Shown piece by piece: positions 2,284-62,892 of a stretch of DNA of 64,000 nt. The stretch is from Candidatus Kaelpia imicola. Its GTDB lineage: Bacteria; Omnitrophota; Gorgyraeia; Kaelpiales; Kaelpiaceae. Positions within the stretch are counted from its first letter, which is position 1; each line of letters begins with the position of its first letter. The notes below the pieces were generated by a model, which saw nothing but the letters and a program-made list of their open reading frames with translations, made no database searches and was not told where the DNA came from. The stretch is from positions 12,306 through 76,305 of the forward strand of contig JAVCCL010000001.1 in assembly GCA_030765505.1 (NCBI GenBank). The letters are read 5' to 3'. The translations under genes were made by a program, and so were the position numbers.

Positions 2284-3762
2284 TTGGGAAGTCTGTTTAT
2301 CAAAGATAAAATCTGGATTCAATTCTCTATAATCTTTATTCTCGTCTTGATTGTATTTTTCAAAAGCTTGAGCTTTGAATTTAGCTGGCTGGACAATGCT
2401 CAGATTGAGGAAGAAAGCTGTATTATTCAAAGTCAGCAGGAGCTTGAAGACCTGTTATTTCAGCCGCTGCTTAATCCTAAAGGCCAGGGTAATTATTATC
2501 GGCCTCTATTTAAAATTTCGTACACATTGGATTTTTTACTCTACGGGAAAAACCCGCTGGGTTTTCGTATAACCAATATCCTGCTGCATATATTTAATTT
2601 AATATTGCTCTATGTTATTTTATTGAAATTTAAAATAGCTAAAGAGATATCTTTACTATCCACGCTTCTTTATGGTTTTTTGCCACTCAATACCTCAGCA
2701 GTGGTCTGTCTAGGGGCAAGGGCTGACCTGCTGGCTGCCTTCTTTGTTCTATTTGCGTTTCTGTCATATCTGACATTCCAGGAAAAGGGTAAGGCGGTCT
2801 ATTTTATCTGCTCTCTTTTAGGGTATATCTTAGCCTTAATGAGCAAGGAGATTGCCTTTCCATTTTTTTTGGTGATCTTTATCATTGCAAAAGCTAAAAA
2901 TCAGTTCAAGATCTGTAATATCTGGTATCTCTTACTTGCTTCGGGGTATCTGTTTATCAGGTTTAAAATCTTTGGTTATATCGGCAGTAGTCTATCTCTT
3001 TTGCGCGGCGAACCGTTTATAACTATTCTATCTTCTTTTGCAGGGTTTTTTAGGTATCTGTTTAAGTTCTTTATGCCTTTCAACCTTTCTTTAAGCGATG
3101 CTTTTCCAAAATATAGTTCTATCTTTAACTTTGAGGTTATTTTTGGATTAATCTTATTCTTCATGATAGCCCTATTCTTTATCCGTTCTGTAAGAAGAGA
3201 AAACTTAACCCTCTCTCTGTTTTTAGGATGGTTGCTGTTCTTCTATATTCCTATATCGAATATTGTCCCGGCTTTACATTTTTGGGCCGAGAGGTTTTTC
3301 TATCTCCCTGGCATTGGATTGATTGGGGTCGTTGGGTATCTTATCTCAAAGAGAAAAAGTCTTAAAATACCATTGGTAGCGGTTGTTCTATTTTACGGTC
3401 TTTTTAATCTTAAATATCAGGAGTATTTTAAAAATAACGAGCTGCTCTTTAGGAGGGCGATTGATATCTCTACAAAGAGTGAAGAGGCATATAATATGCT
3501 GGGCTATCATCATCTTTTAAATAATGACTATTTCCGGACAATATATTATTATCATTTGGCAACACAGGATTTCAGCGGTTATTATACTTACTCTTCTCTG
3601 GATGAGACCTGTAACAATTTAGGTGTAGTATTCTTGAGATTGAAACAGTATAAAGAGGCTAGAAAATGGTTCCAGTCTGCAGTAGCATTAGATGGAGATG
3701 ACAGTAAGGCTGTTTTAAATTTAAAAATATTGGATTTCATTGAGAGTGCTGATGTTAAATAG
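2284..3762 (+). CDS. TMTC-like GT-C glycosyltransferase (DUF1736 membrane domain + C-terminal TPR), paralog 1
   Basis: The first loop has a WLDN..EEE acidic motif and YRPLFKISYTLDF. It also has NILLHIFNLILLY and GARADLL. C-terminal TPR-like repeats are present. The start is TTG, so the start position is uncertain. Confidence 0.65.
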   Translation: MGSLFIKDKIWIQFSIIFILVLIVFFKSLSFEFSWLDNAQIEEESCIIQSQQELEDLLFQPLLNPKGQGNYYRPLFKISYTLDFLLYGKNPLGFRITNILLHIFNLILLYVILLKFKIAKEISLLSTLLYGFLPLNTSAVVCLGARADLLAAFFVLFAFLSYLTFQEKGKAVYFICSLLGYILALMSKEIAFPFFLVIFIIAKAKNQFKICNIWYLLLASGYLFIRFKIFGYIGSSLSLLRGEPFITILSSFAGFFRYLFKFFMPFNLSLSDAFPKYSSIFNFEVIFGLILFFMIALFFIRSVRRENLTLSLFLGWLLFFYIPISNIVPALHFWAERFFYLPGIGLIGVVGYLISKRKSLKIPLVAVVLFYGLFNLKYQEYFKNNELLFRRAIDISTKSEEAYNMLGYHHLLNNDYFRTIYYYHLATQDFSGYYTYSSLDETCNNLGVVFLRLKQYKEARKWFQSAVALDGDDSKAVLNLKILDFIESADVK

Positions 3763-5212
3763 AGATGATATCCTGCCTTTACTAATAATTGTAGCTGCAG
3801 GACTGATTGTCTATATAGGTATTTTAGATGCCCCCTTTATCTATGATGATATCCACCTTGTATTAAACAATGAGCTGATAACCTCTTTTAAGTATATCCC
3901 CGAGCTTTTTAAGACTATATTCAATTCTGATATCTTGAGATTACCTTTTAGGCCCTTGCAGATTATCTCCTATATGTTTGACTATAAGCTCTGGACTTTT
4001 GACCCTAGAGGCTACCATCTTATCAACGTCTTACTTCACGTATTTAATAGCTTGCTATTATACGGTTTAAGTCTACGATTCTTCAAAAGAAGAAAAGAGG
4101 CTTTCTTAATAGCACTTCTGTTTGTAATTCATCCTCTCAATACTGGTGCGGTAAGCTATATATCTGGTAGAGCCGATCTATTAGCAGGATATTTCTCTTT
4201 TCTATCTCTGATCTTATTTTTCAGGTTCTTGGATAGTCATAAGAATATTGCTCTTATTTTAAGCATGCTGTCTTTTGTAGCTGCAATCTTATCTAAAGAG
4301 ATAGCTTTGATAGTACCTCTATTACTTTTGACCTATGTAGTTATCTTCTATCGCCCTTCTTTGCGTTATCTTATTTGCCATCTGGTTATTGCTGCTATTT
4401 ACATGCTGTTGAGATTGCCGGGTTTTCTAGCCGCTACTTTTTTTAAGCCTACGTTAAGCGGAAGATTTTTAACTGCACCCTATCTATTTTTTAGATATTT
4501 AAAAATAATATTTTTTCCTCACAACCTTAGGCTGTCCTATGCTATCAGTTATATAGATTCACCCAAAGACCCTGCATTTATTCTATACTTTATATTGCTC
4601 TCTTTAGTCGTCTGCCTTGGACTCTATTCAATTAGAAAGAGCAAGAGAATGGTATTTTTCTCTATATGGTATATCCTGAACTTTCTGCTTATATCCGGGG
4701 TAGTAGTTGCATTGAATGCTCCTTGTGCCGAGCATTGGCTCTATCTGGGATTGCCTGCAATATTTGCTTTAATGGTATCGTTAATATATAGTCTCTTTTA
4801 CAGGGGAGCAGTATATAGGTATGCCGGTTATATCTTTATAACAGGTATGCTTATATACTATGGATTTTCAACTCTAGAGCGCAATAAAGAGTGGGGGACT
4901 CCTGAAGATTTTTATAAGAACGAGATTGAACATACCCCGTCTAATTACAAAGCTCATTATAATCTGGGCATAATATATTTTAATGAAGGAAGATATCTGG
5001 ATGCCGAAGAAGAGTTCAAAAAAACTATTACGATATTTCCTGAACTTCACCTGGCCTATTATGGCCTTGCTTTAACTGCTGAAGAGAGAGGAGATATGGA
5101 TGAGGCCATCAGCTGCTATTGTAAGAGCTTGGATATAGCTCCGGAATTTGATCTGGGAAGAGAGAGACTCAAAATTTTAAAAGGGAGCTATCTTGGTGAT
5201 GTTAAAAAATAG
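3740..5212 (+). CDS. TMTC-like GT-C glycosyltransferase (DUF1736 + TPR), paralog 2
   Basis: FIYDDIHLVLNNELI (a DD loop motif), FRPLQIISYMFDY, INVLLHVFNSLLLY and SGRADLL are present. The C-terminus has TPR repeats (AHYNLGIIYFNEGRYLDAEEEF...). Confidence 0.75.
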   Translation: MRVLMLNRDDILPLLIIVAAGLIVYIGILDAPFIYDDIHLVLNNELITSFKYIPELFKTIFNSDILRLPFRPLQIISYMFDYKLWTFDPRGYHLINVLLHVFNSLLLYGLSLRFFKRRKEAFLIALLFVIHPLNTGAVSYISGRADLLAGYFSFLSLILFFRFLDSHKNIALILSMLSFVAAILSKEIALIVPLLLLTYVVIFYRPSLRYLICHLVIAAIYMLLRLPGFLAATFFKPTLSGRFLTAPYLFFRYLKIIFFPHNLRLSYAISYIDSPKDPAFILYFILLSLVVCLGLYSIRKSKRMVFFSIWYILNFLLISGVVVALNAPCAEHWLYLGLPAIFALMVSLIYSLFYRGAVYRYAGYIFITGMLIYYGFSTLERNKEWGTPEDFYKNEIEHTPSNYKAHYNLGIIYFNEGRYLDAEEEFKKTITIFPELHLAYYGLALTAEERGDMDEAISCYCKSLDIAPEFDLGRERLKILKGSYLGDVKK

Positions 5213-58130: not shown

Positions 58131-58326
58131 GCGCCTGTAGCTCAATCGGACAGAGCATCTGCCTTCTAAGCAGAACCAGCCCAATTCCCTAACTCATTGA
58201 TTTAACTGTAAATGTATTATCTATCAAACAATTATCCTAAAATCCAAAGTACACTGAAGTACATTGACGTACATCTACGTACATTTAAATTGTCCCCATA
58301 TTGTCCCCAGGGTAGAGGGTGGTGTA
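58131..58326 (+). repeat. Direct repeat copy 2 (~190 bp), beginning with a 5' half of a tRNA-Arg(UCU)-like sequence
   Basis: GCGCCTGTAGCTCAATCGGACAGAGCATCTGCCTTCTAAGCAGAACC... Here the anticodon stem pairs properly (TCTGC/GCAGA). The same internal sub-repeats occur as in copy 1. Confidence 0.7.
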
Positions 58327-58499
58327 CTTGCTAAAGCTTTGCTCTAACAATAATTCAGAGTAACAGTTCAGCTATCAAAAGTAACTCATCCCTTTTAATA
58401 TAGCACTATATCTTTAAACCCTCCTTTTGCCACTCTGTAATAGCTCCGTAATAGTGCTTGACAGAGCCTATCTTTTAGACTATAATCTGATATGTTGAT

Positions 58500-58832
58500 A
58501 TGATATCAGATAAGGTAAAGCTTATGGATGAAAAGAAGATACTTAAAGAACGCCGTAAGATATATGGTCAAATGCCCATGGTTGAGGAGTCTATCCGCGG
58601 TTCATTAGTTGTAATGAGAAGAACCTGCGGGAAAGCTAATTGCCGCTGTCAAAAGGGCCAAAAACACAGAGCAATGTACTTATCTCAAAGTCACAACGGT
58701 AAGACACGCATGATATATATCCCGAAGAACATGGAAAAGAGGGTGGATCAGTATATTAAGAATTACCAAAAGATAAAAAGTGTTTTGAACCGCTTATCAG
58801 ATATTAATATAAAATTGCTTACCAAAAGGTAA
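58500..58832 (+). CDS. Hypothetical small protein inside the IS66-like element (Cys-rich CGKANCRCQKG)
   Basis: 110-aa ORF immediately upstream of the transposase. It is not similar to the canonical IS66 TnpB. Confidence 0.4.
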   Translation: MISDKVKLMDEKKILKERRKIYGQMPMVEESIRGSLVVMRRTCGKANCRCQKGQKHRAMYLSQSHNGKTRMIYIPKNMEKRVDQYIKNYQKIKSVLNRLSDINIKLLTKR

Positions 58833-58838
58833 TAGAGG

Positions 58839-60077
58839 ATGAGTAAAAAGAATCTTTACAAAAGGCTCTTAGAACTTGAAGAAGAGAATAAAAGACTAAA
58901 AGAAGAGAATGCATATCTAAGATTTGAATTGGAAGAGTTCAAATCCAAAAGATACAAATCCAATAAGGAAAAACCGCCTGACCATGGAGGACCCAAACTT
59001 CAGCCTAAGAAAAAAGGCGGTTTGTTTGGTCATATAGGCTGGTTCAGGAAGAAGCCTCAAAGAATAGATAGAATCGAAGAAGTAAAGATAGATAAGTGTC
59101 CAGAGTGCGGTTCTATTGAGATAACAGAATGTAAAGCTATAGAAGAACACCTACAGGAAGATATTCTGATACCTATAGTCCAGGCAACACTTTACCGTAA
59201 ACACAAATATTACTGCAGGAATTGTAAGAAAATAGTCGTCGGTAAAGGCAGAGCTGAACTCCCTAAAAGCTATATAGGCCCAACAGCAAAGTCATGGGCA
59301 GTCTTTTTGAAATACGCAGTCAAGGTATCTGATAGAGATATTAAAAATATATTCCAGAAGATGTTCAATTTAAGAATAGCAGACTCTTCTTTATCGGGTT
59401 TTAGAGACCAGCTGAAACGAGAGGCGTTTCCGATATATAAGAAGCTGCAGAAGGCATTGAAACAAGGCAGCTTTATACACGCCGATGAGACAGGCTGGAA
59501 GGTAGAAGGAGAGAAGCACTGGCTCTGGAAGTTCTCCAATAAAAAGATATCTCTAACTCACATAGACAGAAGCCGCGGACAGAAGGTTGTTGAGGATATT
59601 GTAGGCAGGGAATATGACGGCATAATAATATCGGATTTTTTATCTGCATATAATAAGATTGCTGCTAAAGGGAAACAACGCTGTCTTGTTCATATCTTAA
59701 GAGATTTGAAGAAAGTAATCGAGTATTGGCATGACGATAAAGAGGTTCTAAGATACTGCAGGAGGCTTAAGAAGGTATTTGAAGATGCCATAAAATTATA
59801 CGAAGAATACAGAGATAGAGAATGGGATCAGGATTACTATCGAAAAAGGATCTTGATCACCCAAAGGTTGAAAGACTTCTGCTTCCCAAATCCCAACAAA
59901 AGAATATTGCAGAGATTTGTTAAAAGGCTTAATCGCCATAAAGATGAACTGTTTACCTTCTTATATGAAAAAGATATAGATTATCATAATAATCATGCCG
60001 AACAGCAGATAAGGCCTGATGTGATGAGCGACAATTATAATTACCGGCCAACGACAATTGAAATTCCCGAAAAATAG
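58839..60077 (+). pseudogene. IS66-family transposase (TnpC-like), truncated by the IS21 insertion near codon 395
   Basis: N-terminal leucine zipper, a CPECG..C..YCRNCKK zinc finger, and IHADETGWKV (the IS66 DETxxxV motif). It ends NNHAEQQIRPDV, and the frame then runs into IS21 sequence. Confidence 0.8.
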
Positions 60078-60121
60078 GCTGGAGATGGTAATCTATTTAG
60101 ACTAAAGATAAGGAGGTCTAA

Positions 60122-61612
60122 ATGGTTACCGATCAACAGGTAAGGAGGTTGTTGTTACTCATGAAAAGCGAAAGAACTAAAGCAATAGCAGCGGCTAAGG
60201 CTGGCATGGACGAAAAGACTGCTCGAAAATACGTAAGAATAGGCAAACTGCCTAGTGAAATCGGGAAGAATCATAACTGGCAAACACGTCAAGATTCGTT
60301 TGAGGCAGACTGGAAGCAAATAAAGGAACTTCTAAAAGCTAATCCCGGCTTGGAAGCTAAAACAATCTTTGAGTATTTACAGCGAGAGAAGATAGGCGAA
60401 TATCAAGATGGCCAGTTACGAACGCTTCAACGCAGAGTAAAATACTGGCGGGCCACTGAAGGACCGGCCAAAGAAGTATTTTTCCCTCAGGTACACCGAC
60501 CGGGAGAATTATCAGAGTCTGATTTTACACATATGGAAAAATTAGGGATAACTATTCAAAGAGAACTGTTTGAGCATTTACTTTACCATTTTGTATTAAC
60601 CTATTCAAATTGGGAAACTGGTACAGTATGTTTTTCCGAAAGTTTTGAAAGCTTATCTGCTGGATACCAAAACGCGGTTTGGGAATTAGGCGGAGCAACT
60701 AAAAAACATCGTACTGACCGAATGAGTTCAGCGGTAAATAAAGACTGTAATCCGGAGAAATTTACCAAAAGGTATAAATCTTTGTTACGTCATTATAGAG
60801 TTGAGCCTGAACGTACTAATCCTGCCCGGGCTAATGAAAACGGCGATGTAGAACAGCGGCATTACCGGTTTAAAAAAGCCGTAAGTCAGGCATTAATGTT
60901 ACGCGGCAGCCGTGATTTTAATTCACGACAGGAATATAAACAATTCCTGCGTAGAATATTTGAGCAGCTGAATGCCGGACGGCAAAAGAGATTAGAAGAA
61001 GAACTCACTGTGCTGCGGCGTCTTCCTGCAAGGAAATTAGATGACTATAAGCCTTTGGAGGTTACAGTAAGCCCTTCAAGCACCATTCATGTCCAACATA
61101 ACACCTATTCTGTCCATAGCCGGTTGATCGGCGAAAGAGTTATAGTTAAAATTTATGTGGATTATTTGGAAGTCTGGTATGCTCAGCGTAAGGTAGAACA
61201 TATCCCCCGCCTGCGGGGAGAAGGCAAATACCGTATATACTACCGGCATATCATAGATTGGCTGGTACGCAAACCGGGAGCGTTTGAAAACTATCGTTAT
61301 AAGTCAGAAATGTTCCCTTCGAGCTATTTTAGGATGGCATACGATTATTTGAAGCGTGAGAATCCTCTTAGAGCCAATAAAGAATATGTAGCTGTACTTT
61401 ATATGGCTCATAAAGAAGGAGAAACCCGTACAGAGTCAGCTATACGGCATCTTTTATCTCAAGAACAGCCTCTCTCAGCTGAAAACATGCGGCAGGCAGT
61501 AATTAGAGAGAATAAAATACCTCTGGTTACTGACATAGTCATAGACGATGTCTCTCTAAAAATTTACGATGAACTTTTAAACATTAGAGAGGAGGTAACT
61601 GTTTATGGATAA
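60122..61612 (+). CDS. istA: IS21-family transposase IstA
   Basis: N-terminal HTH followed by a DDE integrase core. The typical 8-nt overlap with istB is present. Confidence 0.85.
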   Translation: MVTDQQVRRLLLLMKSERTKAIAAAKAGMDEKTARKYVRIGKLPSEIGKNHNWQTRQDSFEADWKQIKELLKANPGLEAKTIFEYLQREKIGEYQDGQLRTLQRRVKYWRATEGPAKEVFFPQVHRPGELSESDFTHMEKLGITIQRELFEHLLYHFVLTYSNWETGTVCFSESFESLSAGYQNAVWELGGATKKHRTDRMSSAVNKDCNPEKFTKRYKSLLRHYRVEPERTNPARANENGDVEQRHYRFKKAVSQALMLRGSRDFNSRQEYKQFLRRIFEQLNAGRQKRLEEELTVLRRLPARKLDDYKPLEVTVSPSSTIHVQHNTYSVHSRLIGERVIVKIYVDYLEVWYAQRKVEHIPRLRGEGKYRIYYRHIIDWLVRKPGAFENYRYKSEMFPSSYFRMAYDYLKRENPLRANKEYVAVLYMAHKEGETRTESAIRHLLSQEQPLSAENMRQAVIRENKIPLVTDIVIDDVSLKIYDELLNIREEVTVYG

Positions 61613-62369
61613 AAGCACACAATCCCGGTTACACGGTTATTTAGACGAGTTACGTTTGACCACAACTCGGAAACGTTATTCTGATATCGCTCAGAAGGCA
61701 CGTAAAGATATCTGGGGATATGAAGAATATCTGTTAAGCGTAGTTCAAGAGGAAAGCGAAACCAGAAGAGCTAAGCGTATAGAACGTCTATTACGCCAAT
61801 CCGGCTTGCCTCTTGAGAAAAGTTTAGACACCTTTGAACTAAAACGCCTGCCAAATAAGGTCAGACAGCAGCTAAATGTACTTCTGGAAGGCAGATTCCT
61901 TGACTATAGCGAAAACATTCTGATATTTGGCAATCCCGGCAGTGGAAAAACTCATTTAATTTGTGCTGTAGGCCAAGAGCTTATTCGGCAGGATAAACGA
62001 GTTTATTTTATTACTTGTGCCCTGCTGTTACAGGAATTGCTGGCAGCTAAACGTGATTTGAAACTGCCGAAGCTATTTAAAAAACTAAACCATTATCACG
62101 CTATTATTATTGACGATATCGGTTATGTACATCAGGCTAAAGAAGAAATGGAAGTATTATTTACGCTTTTGGCCCAACGCTATGAGCAAGGCAGCGTTAT
62201 GATTACCAGCAATCTGCCTTTTTCCAAATGGGAAAAAATATTCAAGGACCCTGTAATGACTGCTGCGGCTATTGACCGTATCGTGCATCATAGCATTATC
62301 CTTGAACTCAATATACCGAGTTATCGTATGGCTATGGCTAAAAACCGGAAAATTCAAGAAAGGAGGTAA
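61605..62369 (+). CDS. istB: IS21-family helper ATPase IstB
   Basis: Walker A GNPGSGKTHL. Walker B IIIDDIGYV. DnaC-like. Confidence 0.9.
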   Translation: MDKSTQSRLHGYLDELRLTTTRKRYSDIAQKARKDIWGYEEYLLSVVQEESETRRAKRIERLLRQSGLPLEKSLDTFELKRLPNKVRQQLNVLLEGRFLDYSENILIFGNPGSGKTHLICAVGQELIRQDKRVYFITCALLLQELLAAKRDLKLPKLFKKLNHYHAIIIDDIGYVHQAKEEMEVLFTLLAQRYEQGSVMITSNLPFSKWEKIFKDPVMTAAAIDRIVHHSIILELNIPSYRMAMAKNRKIQERR

Positions 62370-62445
62370 TTTTTTTTAACTCAGGCATCGGGAAAAATAA
62401 TTGTCGTTGAAGGGAAAAAATAGTTGACGTCCATCACTGATGTGA

Positions 62446-62717
62446 TATTTAGAAAGATCACATTCCAGAATAGGTCATGCAGAGGAGCAGAAAACCACAG
62501 TATCCTCATGAGCATACTGCAGACAGCAAAATTGAACGGATTAGACCCCATAAAAACTTTTGAGAAAATATTGCTCTGCACTGACAAGCTGTCTATCTTA
62601 AAACCTGCCTTTGAAAAACTGACGCCTGCTTACCATGATATTTCAATACTGCAGAAGGTATTTTCACTACCGCCTAAGACCAAAGATATGCAGTTAACTA
62701 CAGCAGCCCCTCCTTAA
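62446..62717 (+). pseudogene. C-terminal fragment of the interrupted IS66-family transposase
   Basis: ...IFRKITFQNRSCRGAENHSILMSILQTAKLNGLDP is the IS66 C-terminal signature. When the IS21 element is removed in silico, it is in frame with the upstream fragment, giving IRPDVIFRKITFQN. Confidence 0.75.
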
Positions 62718-62892
62718 ACATTATCATTATTTTTGTAATTTAGGTTAAACCAGGATAAGATTGCTTCCCCCGAAACTTTGGAGCTGCAAAGAGAGCTGAG
62801 TTATTCTCTGCGGATAGCTGAACTGTTACAATTCAGATGTTATTTTTGTACTCAGTTTGTAAAATAGTTTAATAAGTGGTATAAATATAGAT

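What the first reader, a model, noticed from the sequence alone, without database searches (positions are those of the whole stretch)
58352..62837. Nested insertion sequences: an IS21-family element (istAB) inserted into the transposase gene of an IS66-family element, both with intact target-site duplications
The IS66-like element has 17-bp perfect terminal inverted repeats and an 8-bp AATTCAGA duplication. Its TnpC ORF stops at …IRPDV and resumes 2.4 kb later as IFRKITFQN…. Removing the IS21 element and one copy of the CTGATGTGA duplication restores the IS66 C-terminal signature in frame. The IS21 block is visibly GC-richer than the host sequence, which suggests recent horizontal acquisition. 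The IS66 element is therefore disabled, and the order of events can be read off directly.
Basis: seen in the sequence. Interest (0 to 1): 0.55.

Follow-up and report, generated by a model that had tools for sequence, protein, structure and literature searches.

The report
IS21 element nested inside an IS66 element
One jumping gene (an IS21-family insertion sequence) has landed inside the transposase gene of another (a small IS66-family element) in an uncultured Antarctic-lake Omnitrophota bacterium, which is real and cleanly documented but an ordinary kind of event.

Summary
A 2,049-bp IS66-family element occupies 58360-62829. It has 17-bp perfect inverted repeats and an 8-bp AATTCAGA duplication. 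It is split by a 2,415-bp IS21-family element (60022-62436) that carries intact istA and istB. In silico excision restores a 485-aa TnpC that passes NCBI's IS66 model across the junction. An independent metagenome contig (L031) carries a 92%-identical uninterrupted copy with the predicted empty site CCTGATGTGATATT.

Three corrections:
- The IS21 duplication is most likely 6 bp (CTGATG), not 9. Related copies fix the IS21 ends at TGATGAG…CATCA, so the extra TGA is a coincidence between the IS end and the target.
- The IS66 element is of the ISBst12 type.
- The GC argument for recent horizontal acquisition is weak. The element is 40.7% GC against 35.4% for the host, but its third-codon-position GC lies within the host range.

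The order "IS66 first, IS21 second" holds for the element. It does not necessarily hold for this chromosomal site. The host is Candidatus Kaelpia imicola.

Nested insertion sequences are commonplace, so interest is low. The one mildly novel by-product is that DUF6788 proteins are carried by insertion sequences with two unrelated transposase families.

The parts
58352..58359 (.). Left copy of the 8-bp target-site duplication (AATTCAGA) of the IS66-family element
   Evidence: Exact repeat of 62830-62837, directly abutting the terminal inverted repeat. A related element (L023/L025) also has an 8-bp duplication.
58360..58376 (+). Left terminal inverted repeat of the IS66-family element (GTAACAGTTCAGCTATC)
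   Evidence: 100% complementary to 62813-62829 (I6). These are the only two matches in the window. Relatives begin with GTAACAG…. The ISBst12-group element ISDge4 has the repeat GTAACTGCTCAGCA (PMC12898284).
58458..58486 (+). Promoter-like site TTGACA-17-TATAAT (12 of 12 matches) upstream of the DUF6788 ORF. It is followed by the hairpin CTGATAT-n9-ATATCAG at 58487-58509.
   Evidence: Consensus scan. The hairpin was read from the sequence. Function is inferred only.
58524..58832 (+). First ORF of the IS66-like element: a DUF6788 protein of 102 aa (110 aa if started at the ATG at 58500) with a conserved C-x4-C-x-C-x5-H motif
   Evidence: Pfam PF20586 scores 72.6 bits against a cutoff of 27.2. 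Homologues are mostly 102 aa. C35, C40, C42 and H48 are invariant. A homologous ORF lies directly upstream of TnpC in relatives L004-L008, L010, L025 and L027.
58839..60021 (+). 5' part of IS66-family transposase gene tnpC (codons 1-395). As it stands, the ORF runs on to 60077 and gives a 412-aa truncated protein with a 17-aa foreign tail.
   Evidence: ORF list. It is identical to the NCBI protein P0001, 'IS66 family transposase [Candidatus Kaelpia imicola]'. Alignment A1 shows divergence from all homologues after V395.
60016..60021 (.). Left copy of the IS21 target-site duplication (CTGATG).
   Evidence: Direct repeat. The boundary is fixed by homology to independent IS21 relatives that start at TGATGAGCGAC.
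60022..62436 (+). Complete IS21-family insertion sequence, 2,415 bp, with TG…CA termini
   Evidence: Homology at 81-86% nucleotide identity to copies in unrelated contexts (L011, L012, L014) spans exactly 60022-62436. It has imperfect inverted repeats of about 50 nt (I1).
60022..60070 (+). IS21 left inverted repeat, with two internal direct repeats (60029-60046 and 60052-60069, CGACAATT…) 23 bp apart. These are presumed IstA binding sites.
   Evidence: the repeat finder I1, I17 and D20. The binding-site role is inferred from what is known of the IS21 family.
60122..61612 (+). istA, the IS21-family DDE transposase (496 aa, full length)
   Evidence: NCBIfam NF033546 scores 200.2 bits against a cutoff of 160. 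Pfam finds rve and Mu-transpos_C_2. Most homologues are 496 aa.
61605..62369 (+). istB, the IS21 helper AAA+ ATPase (254 aa). It overlaps istA by 8 nt.
   Evidence: NF038214 scores 257.8 bits against a cutoff of 200. PF01695 scores 204.9 bits. It scores 157 bits against IS5376 IstB, PDB 8q3w and 5bq5.
62388..62436 (-). IS21 right inverted repeat, with two internal repeats (62390-62407 and 62413-62430)
   Evidence: the repeat finder I1 and D19. Relatives end in …GTTGACGTTCATCA.
62437..62442 (.). Right copy of the IS21 target-site duplication (CTGATG)
62443..62717 (+). 3' part of tnpC (codons 396-485 plus stop, from 62445; IFRKITFQNRS…)
   Evidence: In-frame restoration. The residues after V395 are nearly invariant in homologues. 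It is 91.9% identical to the uninterrupted relative L031.
62813..62829 (-). Right terminal inverted repeat of the IS66-family element
   Evidence: I6. Homology to L031 stops exactly at 62829.
62830..62837 (.). Right copy of the 8-bp duplication AATTCAGA

Best explanation
This is a two-step nested transposition.

**The outer element.** A 2,049-bp IS66-family element of the ISBst12 type carries a promoter, a DUF6788 ORF and tnpC. It is bounded by 17-bp GTAACAG… inverted repeats. It sits in an intergenic spot between a tRNA relic and a peptidase gene of Candidatus Kaelpia imicola (Omnitrophota). On integration it duplicated 8 bp (AATTCAGA).

**The inner element.** A 2,415-bp IS21-family element (istA transposase plus istB AAA+ helper) later integrated, in the same orientation, into codon 395/396 of tnpC. 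It has TG…CA ends with doubled IstA-site repeats, and it duplicated 6 bp (CTGATG).

**Consequences.**
- TnpC is cut 7 residues after its putative catalytic glutamate. It loses the conserved IFRKITFxNRS motif and the C-terminal 90 residues, so the IS66 element is very probably non-autonomous.
- Its ends are intact, so it could still be moved in trans.
- The IS21 element looks intact and potentially active.
- Both events are recent relative to mutational decay. The duplications and the IS66 inverted repeats are perfect, and there are no stops or frameshifts in either tnpC half.

**Shown versus inferred.** The anatomy, the family membership, the restoration on excision and the natural empty-site homologue are shown. 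Loss of TnpC function, IS21 activity, and the order of events relative to this chromosomal site are inferred.
For: - **IS66 repeats.** The inverted repeats and duplications are exact.
- **Excision.** Removing the insert gives a 485-aa ORF. It matches NF033517 (IS66 family transposase) at 235.5 bits against a cutoff of 180, over residues 70-438, which spans the junction at 395/396.
- **Protein alignment A1.** R392, P393, D394 and V395 are invariant. I396 to F402 are nearly invariant, and only the truncated protein P0001 departs. Homologues are 484-486 aa long.
- **Natural empty site.** L031 aligns to 58896-60025 (92.2%) and to 62437-62829 (91.9%). The two blocks overlap by 10 nt on L031, which has a single CCTGATGTGATATT. 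Homology stops exactly at the right inverted-repeat end.
- **IS21 ends.** They are fixed by independent copies.
- **IS21 genes.** IstA and IstB pass the NCBIfam equivalog cutoffs and have the same lengths as relatives.
- **IS66 relatives.** They share the DUF6788 plus TnpC layout, GTAACAG ends and an 8-bp duplication. L023/L025 has a 22-bp perfect inverted repeat and the duplication TAGGACAC.
- **Independent assemblies.** The same nested junctions occur in two other assemblies.
- **Source organism.** It comes from names and from PMC8542988.
Against: - No chromosomal empty site for the IS66 insertion could be found. The host flank protein is not in the look-up collection, and the species was not found in the genome scan.
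- The two extra assemblies may come from the same lake population, so they are not independent evolutionary samples.
- The one related IS21 copy with a clear duplication has 5 bp (GTAGT, L011), not 6. The duplication length in this lineage is therefore variable or imperfectly known.
- The truncated TnpC retains the putative D216, D266 and E388 residues, so residual activity is not formally excluded.
Confidence: 0.93

Rival explanations
1. The nesting is the same, but the order is different with respect to this site. IS21 entered an IS66 copy elsewhere in the genome or in another host. The 4.47-kb composite IS66::IS21 was then transposed to the AATTCAGA site by TnpC supplied in trans from an intact copy.
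For: Both IS66 inverted repeats are perfect and the 8-bp duplication is intact, so the composite is a competent substrate. Related IS66-type elements are numerous in Omnitrophota metagenomes, with 2,534 homologues at E<=1e-20, many on IS-sized contigs. Intact helpers are therefore plausible.
Against: No second copy of either element is present in the 64-kb window. No intact TnpC more than 91% identical was found in the collections. The only exact IstA matches are this same junction. Direct insertion in situ is the simpler history.
Confidence: 0.12
2. The IS21 duplication really is 9 bp (CTGATGTGA), and the IS21 element is 60025-62436 (2,412 bp).
For: The 9-bp direct repeat is exact. Excision in any register gives the same product, so the sequence alone cannot discriminate.
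Against: All related copies start with TGATGAGCGACAAT, and homology to the window begins at 60022 (60021 for L014), not 60025. The inverted repeat pairs TGATG with CATCA (I1). From memory, IS21-family duplications are 4-8 bp according to ISfinder. The relative L011 has 5 bp.
Confidence: 0.05
3. It is an assembly artefact, or two unrelated IS66 fragments that happen to flank an IS21 element. Examples would be a MAG chimera, or recombination between two different IS66 copies.
For: The source is a metagenome-assembled genome, and repeats are a classic cause of misassembly.
Against: The same junctions occur at 100% identity in two other assemblies made with other pipelines. A perfect short duplication sits exactly at the IS21 ends. 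The ORF is restored in frame to the family-typical length. Both arms diverge equally from one uninterrupted relative, at 92.2% and 91.9%. The IS66 inverted repeats are a perfect pair and are flanked by a matching 8-bp duplication.
Confidence: 0.01

Closest known systems
IS66 family, ISBst12 group (ISBst12 of Geobacillus stearothermophilus; ISDge4 of Deinococcus geothermalis)
   Same: It has a TnpC-type DDE transposase (NF033517 and PF03050 pass) and no tnpA or tnpB. Its inverted repeat begins GTAAC..TCAGC, like ISDge4's GTAACTGCTCAGCA. It makes an 8-bp duplication (PMC12898284).
   Different: It carries an extra conserved upstream ORF (DUF6788, 102 aa), so the element is 2,049 bp, whereas PMC12898284 describes the ISBst12 group as single-ORF elements. 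The host phylum is Omnitrophota. TnpC is only distantly related to named elements. No ISfinder comparison was possible.
Canonical IS66 (tnpA-tnpB-tnpC; IS66, IS679, ISRm14)
   Same: The transposase family, the GTAA-type termini and the 8-bp duplication are the same.
   Different: There are no TnpA or TnpB homologues. The only other ORF is DUF6788.
IS21 family (IS21, IS5376, IS408 and others)
   Same: istA (HTH, rve and Mu-transpos_C_2 domains) and istB (AAA+) overlap in tandem. The termini are TG…CA. The inverted repeats are about 50 bp, imperfect, and each holds two internal repeats. The duplication is short and the length is 2.4 kb.
   Different: IstA belongs to a sub-lineage with a Y4rL_C domain (precomputed PF27155). 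It is too far from solved structures for phmmer to find any. It is an unnamed lineage, common in Omnitrophota, Elusimicrobiota and Nitrospirota metagenomes.
Nested IS insertions in other bacteria (e.g. 18 IS copies split by nested IS insertions in Wolbachia genomes, PMC3205602)
   Same: One IS is split in two by another, and both can be reconstructed.
   Different: Nothing differs in kind. This is simply a very clean, undecayed example in an uncultured phylum.

Membership tests
IS66 family | TnpC-type DDE transposase | tested here: met
   The restored 485-aa protein scores 235.5 bits on NF033517 (cutoff 180) and 133.2 bits on PF03050 (cutoff 23.1).
IS66 family | Terminal inverted repeats beginning 5'-GTAA | tested here: met
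   GTAACAGTTCAGCTATC, a 17-bp perfect repeat. The family rule is recalled from ISfinder and from PMC12898284.
IS66 family | 8-bp target-site duplication | tested here: met
   AATTCAGA is present on both sides. The relative L023/L025 has the 8-bp duplication TAGGACAC.
IS66 family (canonical group) | Accessory genes tnpA and tnpB upstream of tnpC | tested here: not met
   The only other ORF in the 2,049-bp element is DUF6788. It has no match to TnpA or TnpB models. The element is therefore filed with the ISBst12-type group, not canonical IS66.
IS66 family, ISBst12 group | Single transposase ORF, no tnpA or tnpB | tested here: inconclusive
   There is no tnpA or tnpB, but there is a second conserved ORF (DUF6788). 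Whether ISfinder places such two-ORF elements in this group could not be checked.
IS21 family | istA transposase followed by an overlapping istB AAA+ helper | tested here: met
   NF033546 scores 200.2 against 160, and NF038214 scores 257.8 against 200. The ORFs overlap by 8 nt.
IS21 family | Imperfect inverted repeats ending TG…CA, with multiple internal repeats | tested here: met
   The ends are TGATG…CATCA. Two repeats 23 bp apart lie at each end (I1, D19, D20).
IS21 family | Short target-site duplication (4-8 bp) | tested here: met
   6 bp, CTGATG, given the ends fixed by relatives. The range is recalled from ISfinder.
Nested IS insertion | Excising the inner element plus one duplication copy restores the outer element. 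An uninterrupted homologue shows the empty site. | tested here: met
Active (autonomous) IS | Demonstrated transposition or multiple identical copies | not testable with these tools
   There is only one copy of each in the window. The rest of the genome is not available.

The most novel reading that the evidence does not exclude
The by-product, rather than the nesting itself, is the most novel reading. DUF6788 may be a dedicated accessory protein carried by insertion sequences and recruited by at least two unrelated DDE transposase families. It is a roughly 100-aa protein with a CCCH zinc motif, with no fold match above threshold in the PDB (Foldseek) and no mention in the searched literature. 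Here it is the first ORF of ISBst12-like IS66 elements. In another bacterium it is the first ORF of a 1.99-kb IS701/IS4-like element with 9-bp duplications, present at six or more loci. It would then be a portable regulator or DNA-targeting subunit of transposition.
Probability: 0.45. Interest if true: 0.35.

Novelty: new member of a known kind. Interest (0 to 1): 0.13.

Why it matters
In itself it matters little, because insertion sequences landing in other insertion sequences are routine.

It does have some practical value:
- It gives exact ends, duplications and gene content for two unnamed IS lineages that are abundant in Omnitrophota metagenomes. That helps MAG annotation. NCBI currently labels the truncated 412-aa fragment simply as 'IS66 family transposase'.
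- It gives a relative order of IS activity in an uncultured nanobacterial lineage.
- It points to DUF6788 as an uncharacterised component carried by insertion sequences, which may be worth an experiment.

Tried and rejected
- **Exact-sequence look-ups.** The DUF6788 ORF (both starts) and the flanking host glycosyltransferase gave no record. No chromosomal empty site for the IS66 insertion could therefore be obtained.
- **Species-representative genome scan.** It returned only one 55%-identical relative, in another Omnitrophota MAG. The source species was not recovered there.
- **Solved structures.** PDB sequence searches for IstA and for the TnpC profile found nothing. No structural check of the catalytic residues was possible, so D216, D266 and E388 are inferred from invariance in alignment A1.
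- **DUF6788 fold search.** The AlphaFold model (pLDDT 90.6) found no significant match in the PDB; the best E-value was 0.22.
- **Literature.** No paper mentions DUF6788.
- **GC as evidence of recent transfer.** Rejected as weak, because GC3 lies within the host range.
- **Contig ends of L001 and L002.** I considered whether they say anything about copy number. They stop inside the elements, but not at the junctions, so no conclusion follows.
- **L014 and L019.** These related IS21 copies show no matching duplication. That probably reflects collapsed multi-copy assembly, so they were not used for duplication length.


Full report
**1. Observation**

For the outer element:
- AATTCAGA lies at 58352-58359 and again at 62830-62837.
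- Immediately inside these, GTAACAGTTCAGCTATC (58360-76) is the perfect reverse complement of 62813-29.
- With up to three mismatches, the 17-mer occurs nowhere else in the 64-kb window.

For the inner element:
- CTGATGTGA occurs at 60016-24 and 62437-45.
- These repeats bracket a block with 50-nt imperfect (72%) terminal inverted repeats, at 60021-70 and 62388-437. Each arm holds two internal repeats 23 bp apart (I1, D19, D20).

**2. What the genes are**

- The ORF at 60122-61612 (496 aa) passes the NCBIfam equivalog 'IS21 family transposase', at 200.2 bits against a cutoff of 160.
- The overlapping ORF at 61605-62369 (254 aa) passes 'IS21-like element helper ATPase IstB', at 257.8 against 200. 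It also matches IS5376 IstB structures at 157 bits.
- The ORF at 58839-60077 (412 aa) is an IS66 TnpC that departs from all homologues after V395.
- Deleting the insert plus one repeat copy, in any register, yields an open 485-aa ORF.
- That ORF passes 'IS66 family transposase' at 235.5 bits against 180, over residues 70-438, which spans the junction.
- In alignment A1, R392-V395 are invariant. I396-F402 are invariant except in the truncated protein. Homologues are 484-486 aa long.
- The small ORF upstream of tnpC is a DUF6788 protein, at 72.6 bits. It most likely runs 58524-58832 and encodes 102 aa. There are no TnpA or TnpB homologues.

**3. Independent support from other sequences**

*Same nested allele.* Two other assemblies contain the same allele at 100% identity. 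L001 covers 58533-62509 and both junctions. L002 covers 59969-62310. This excludes a MAG chimera, although they may sample the same population.

*Natural empty site.* L031 carries an uninterrupted relative. It aligns to 58896-60025 at 92.2% and to 62437-62829 at 91.9%. It has a single CCTGATGTGATATT at the join, and homology ends exactly at the right inverted-repeat end.

*IS66-type relatives.* Relatives at 61-72% protein identity (L004-L010, L023-L030) have the same DUF6788 plus TnpC layout and GTAACAG… termini. In L023/L025 there is a 22-bp perfect inverted repeat with the 8-bp duplication TAGGACAC.

*IS21 relatives.* Related elements at 81-86% nucleotide identity lie in unrelated contexts. 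They all begin TGATGAGCGACAAT and end …CATCA or …GATCA. Their homology to the window spans exactly 60022-62436.

**4.

*Duplication length.* With the ends fixed at TG(60022)…CA(62436), the duplication is CTGATG, 6 bp. The further TGA is a coincidence between the IS end (TGATGAG) and the target (…CTGATG|TGATATT). A relative (L011) shows 5 bp (GTAGT), so the lineage makes short duplications, as expected for IS21.

*Type of IS66 element.* It is ISBst12-like rather than canonical. Its inverted repeat resembles that of ISDge4 (GTAACTGCTCAGCA, 8-bp duplication; PMC12898284). It also carries the extra DUF6788 ORF and a 12-of-12 consensus promoter at 58458-86.

*GC content.* The IS21 block is 40.7% GC. 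Host 2,415-bp windows average 35.5% with an s.d. of 2.6%, giving z = 2.06, and 0.7% of those windows are as high. However, GC3 of istA and istB (0.356 and 0.373) is inside the host range of 0.25-0.39. The related copy L011 shows the same offset from its own flank, 40.8% against 36.1%. The excess therefore reflects protein composition and lineage, and is not good evidence of recent transfer.

*Order of events.* IS66 certainly predates the IS21 insertion into it. Because both IS66 ends are intact, the composite could have reached this chromosomal site afterwards, using TnpC supplied in trans. I give this about 0.12.

**5. Mechanism and state**

- The insertion lies 7 codons after E388 of the NNHAEQQ motif. 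D216 (DETGW), D266 (SDFLSAYN) and E388 are invariant in A1 and are the inferred catalytic triad.
- The truncated protein loses the conserved IFRKITFxNRSxxGA motif, the ILQTAKLN motif and the C-terminal 90 residues. It gains 17 foreign residues.
- Loss of autonomy is therefore very likely, but it is inferred.
- The IS21 element has full-length genes and complete ends, so it is plausibly active.
- The duplications and inverted repeats are perfect, and both tnpC halves are undecayed. Both events are therefore recent.

**6. Source**

The truncated TnpC and the IstA are identical to NCBI proteins of 'MAG: Candidatus Kaelpia imicola' on a 77,481-bp contig. This is an Omnitrophota genome from Ace Lake, Antarctica (PMC8542988).

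**7. Comparison and novelty**

Nested IS insertions are routine. For example, 18 split IS copies were reported in four Wolbachia genomes (PMC3205602). Both elements here are new, unnamed members of known families. I rate this 'new member of a known kind', with interest of about 0.13.

**8. By-product**

- DUF6788 homologues share an invariant C-x4-C-x-C-x5-H motif.
- The fold is confidently predicted, with pLDDT 90.6: a helix, a three-stranded sheet and a long helix.
- It has no significant PDB match and no mention in the literature searched.
- A distant member, P0313, is the first ORF of a different IS. That element is 1.99 kb, has the inverted repeat CAGCGATTCCGCAA and 9-bp duplications, and encodes an IS701/IS4-like DDE_Tnp_1 transposase. 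It is present at six or more loci at 99.7-99.95% identity.
- DUF6788 thus appears to be a component carried by insertion sequences and shared by unrelated transposase families. This is the most novel reading that the data allow.

Noticed in passing
window 58131-58183 (+): A tRNA-Arg(UCU)-like relic. The acceptor 5' strand, D arm and anticodon arm are intact, but the variable and T arms are missing. It scores 27.8 bits against the Rfam gathering score of 29, and ARAGORN does not call it. It lies 170 bp upstream of the IS66 insertion and may be a remnant attachment site of an integrative element, or a decayed tRNA gene.
   Followed up: partly
window 58249-58309 (+): Four head-to-tail 10-bp units (GTACACTGAA, GTACATTGAC, GTACATCTAC, GTACATTTAA) are followed by two copies of ATTGTCCCCA. 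They lie between the tRNA relic and the IS66 end. They look like protein-binding iterons or arm-type sites. No integrase is nearby (read).
   Followed up: no
L032-L037 (positions 2842-4833 of each locus): A 1.99-kb IS whose first ORF is a DUF6788 protein (127 aa). It is followed by a split IS701/IS4-like DDE_Tnp_1 transposase. It has the inverted repeat CAGCGATTCCGCAA and 9-bp duplications. Six or more loci are 99.7-99.95% identical, in contigs up to 757 kb among the loci fetched (up to 2.2 Mb listed). DUF6788 is therefore carried by insertion sequences with a second, unrelated transposase family.
   Followed up: partly
L016 1-4197 (also L015): A related IS21 element (78% IstA identity) carries a 531-aa rve-type transposase gene in reverse orientation between its left inverted repeat and istA, about 1.8 kb extra. 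This is another apparent nested insertion, or a passenger gene, in this IS21 lineage.
   Followed up: partly
L013 positions 30 and 3015: The same IS21 right end (…GGTTGACGTTCATCA) appears twice on one 3,015-bp contig, and the left end was not recognisable. This could be a tandem or circular junction, or an assembly wrap-around.
   Followed up: no
window 58458-58509 (+): A perfect sigma-70 consensus promoter (TTGACA-17-TATAAT) lies inside the IS66-type element. It is immediately followed by a 7-bp-stem hairpin (CTGATAT n9 ATATCAG) that overlaps the first in-frame ATG of the DUF6788 ORF. This may be an operator or a leader structure.
   Followed up: partly
window 60016-60028 and 62432-62445: The IS21 target (CTGATGTGAT) itself contains TGATG, the first five bases of the IS21 end. 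This produces the misleading 9-bp repeat. It is probably coincidence, because the relative L011 inserted at an unrelated GTAGT site.
   Followed up: yes
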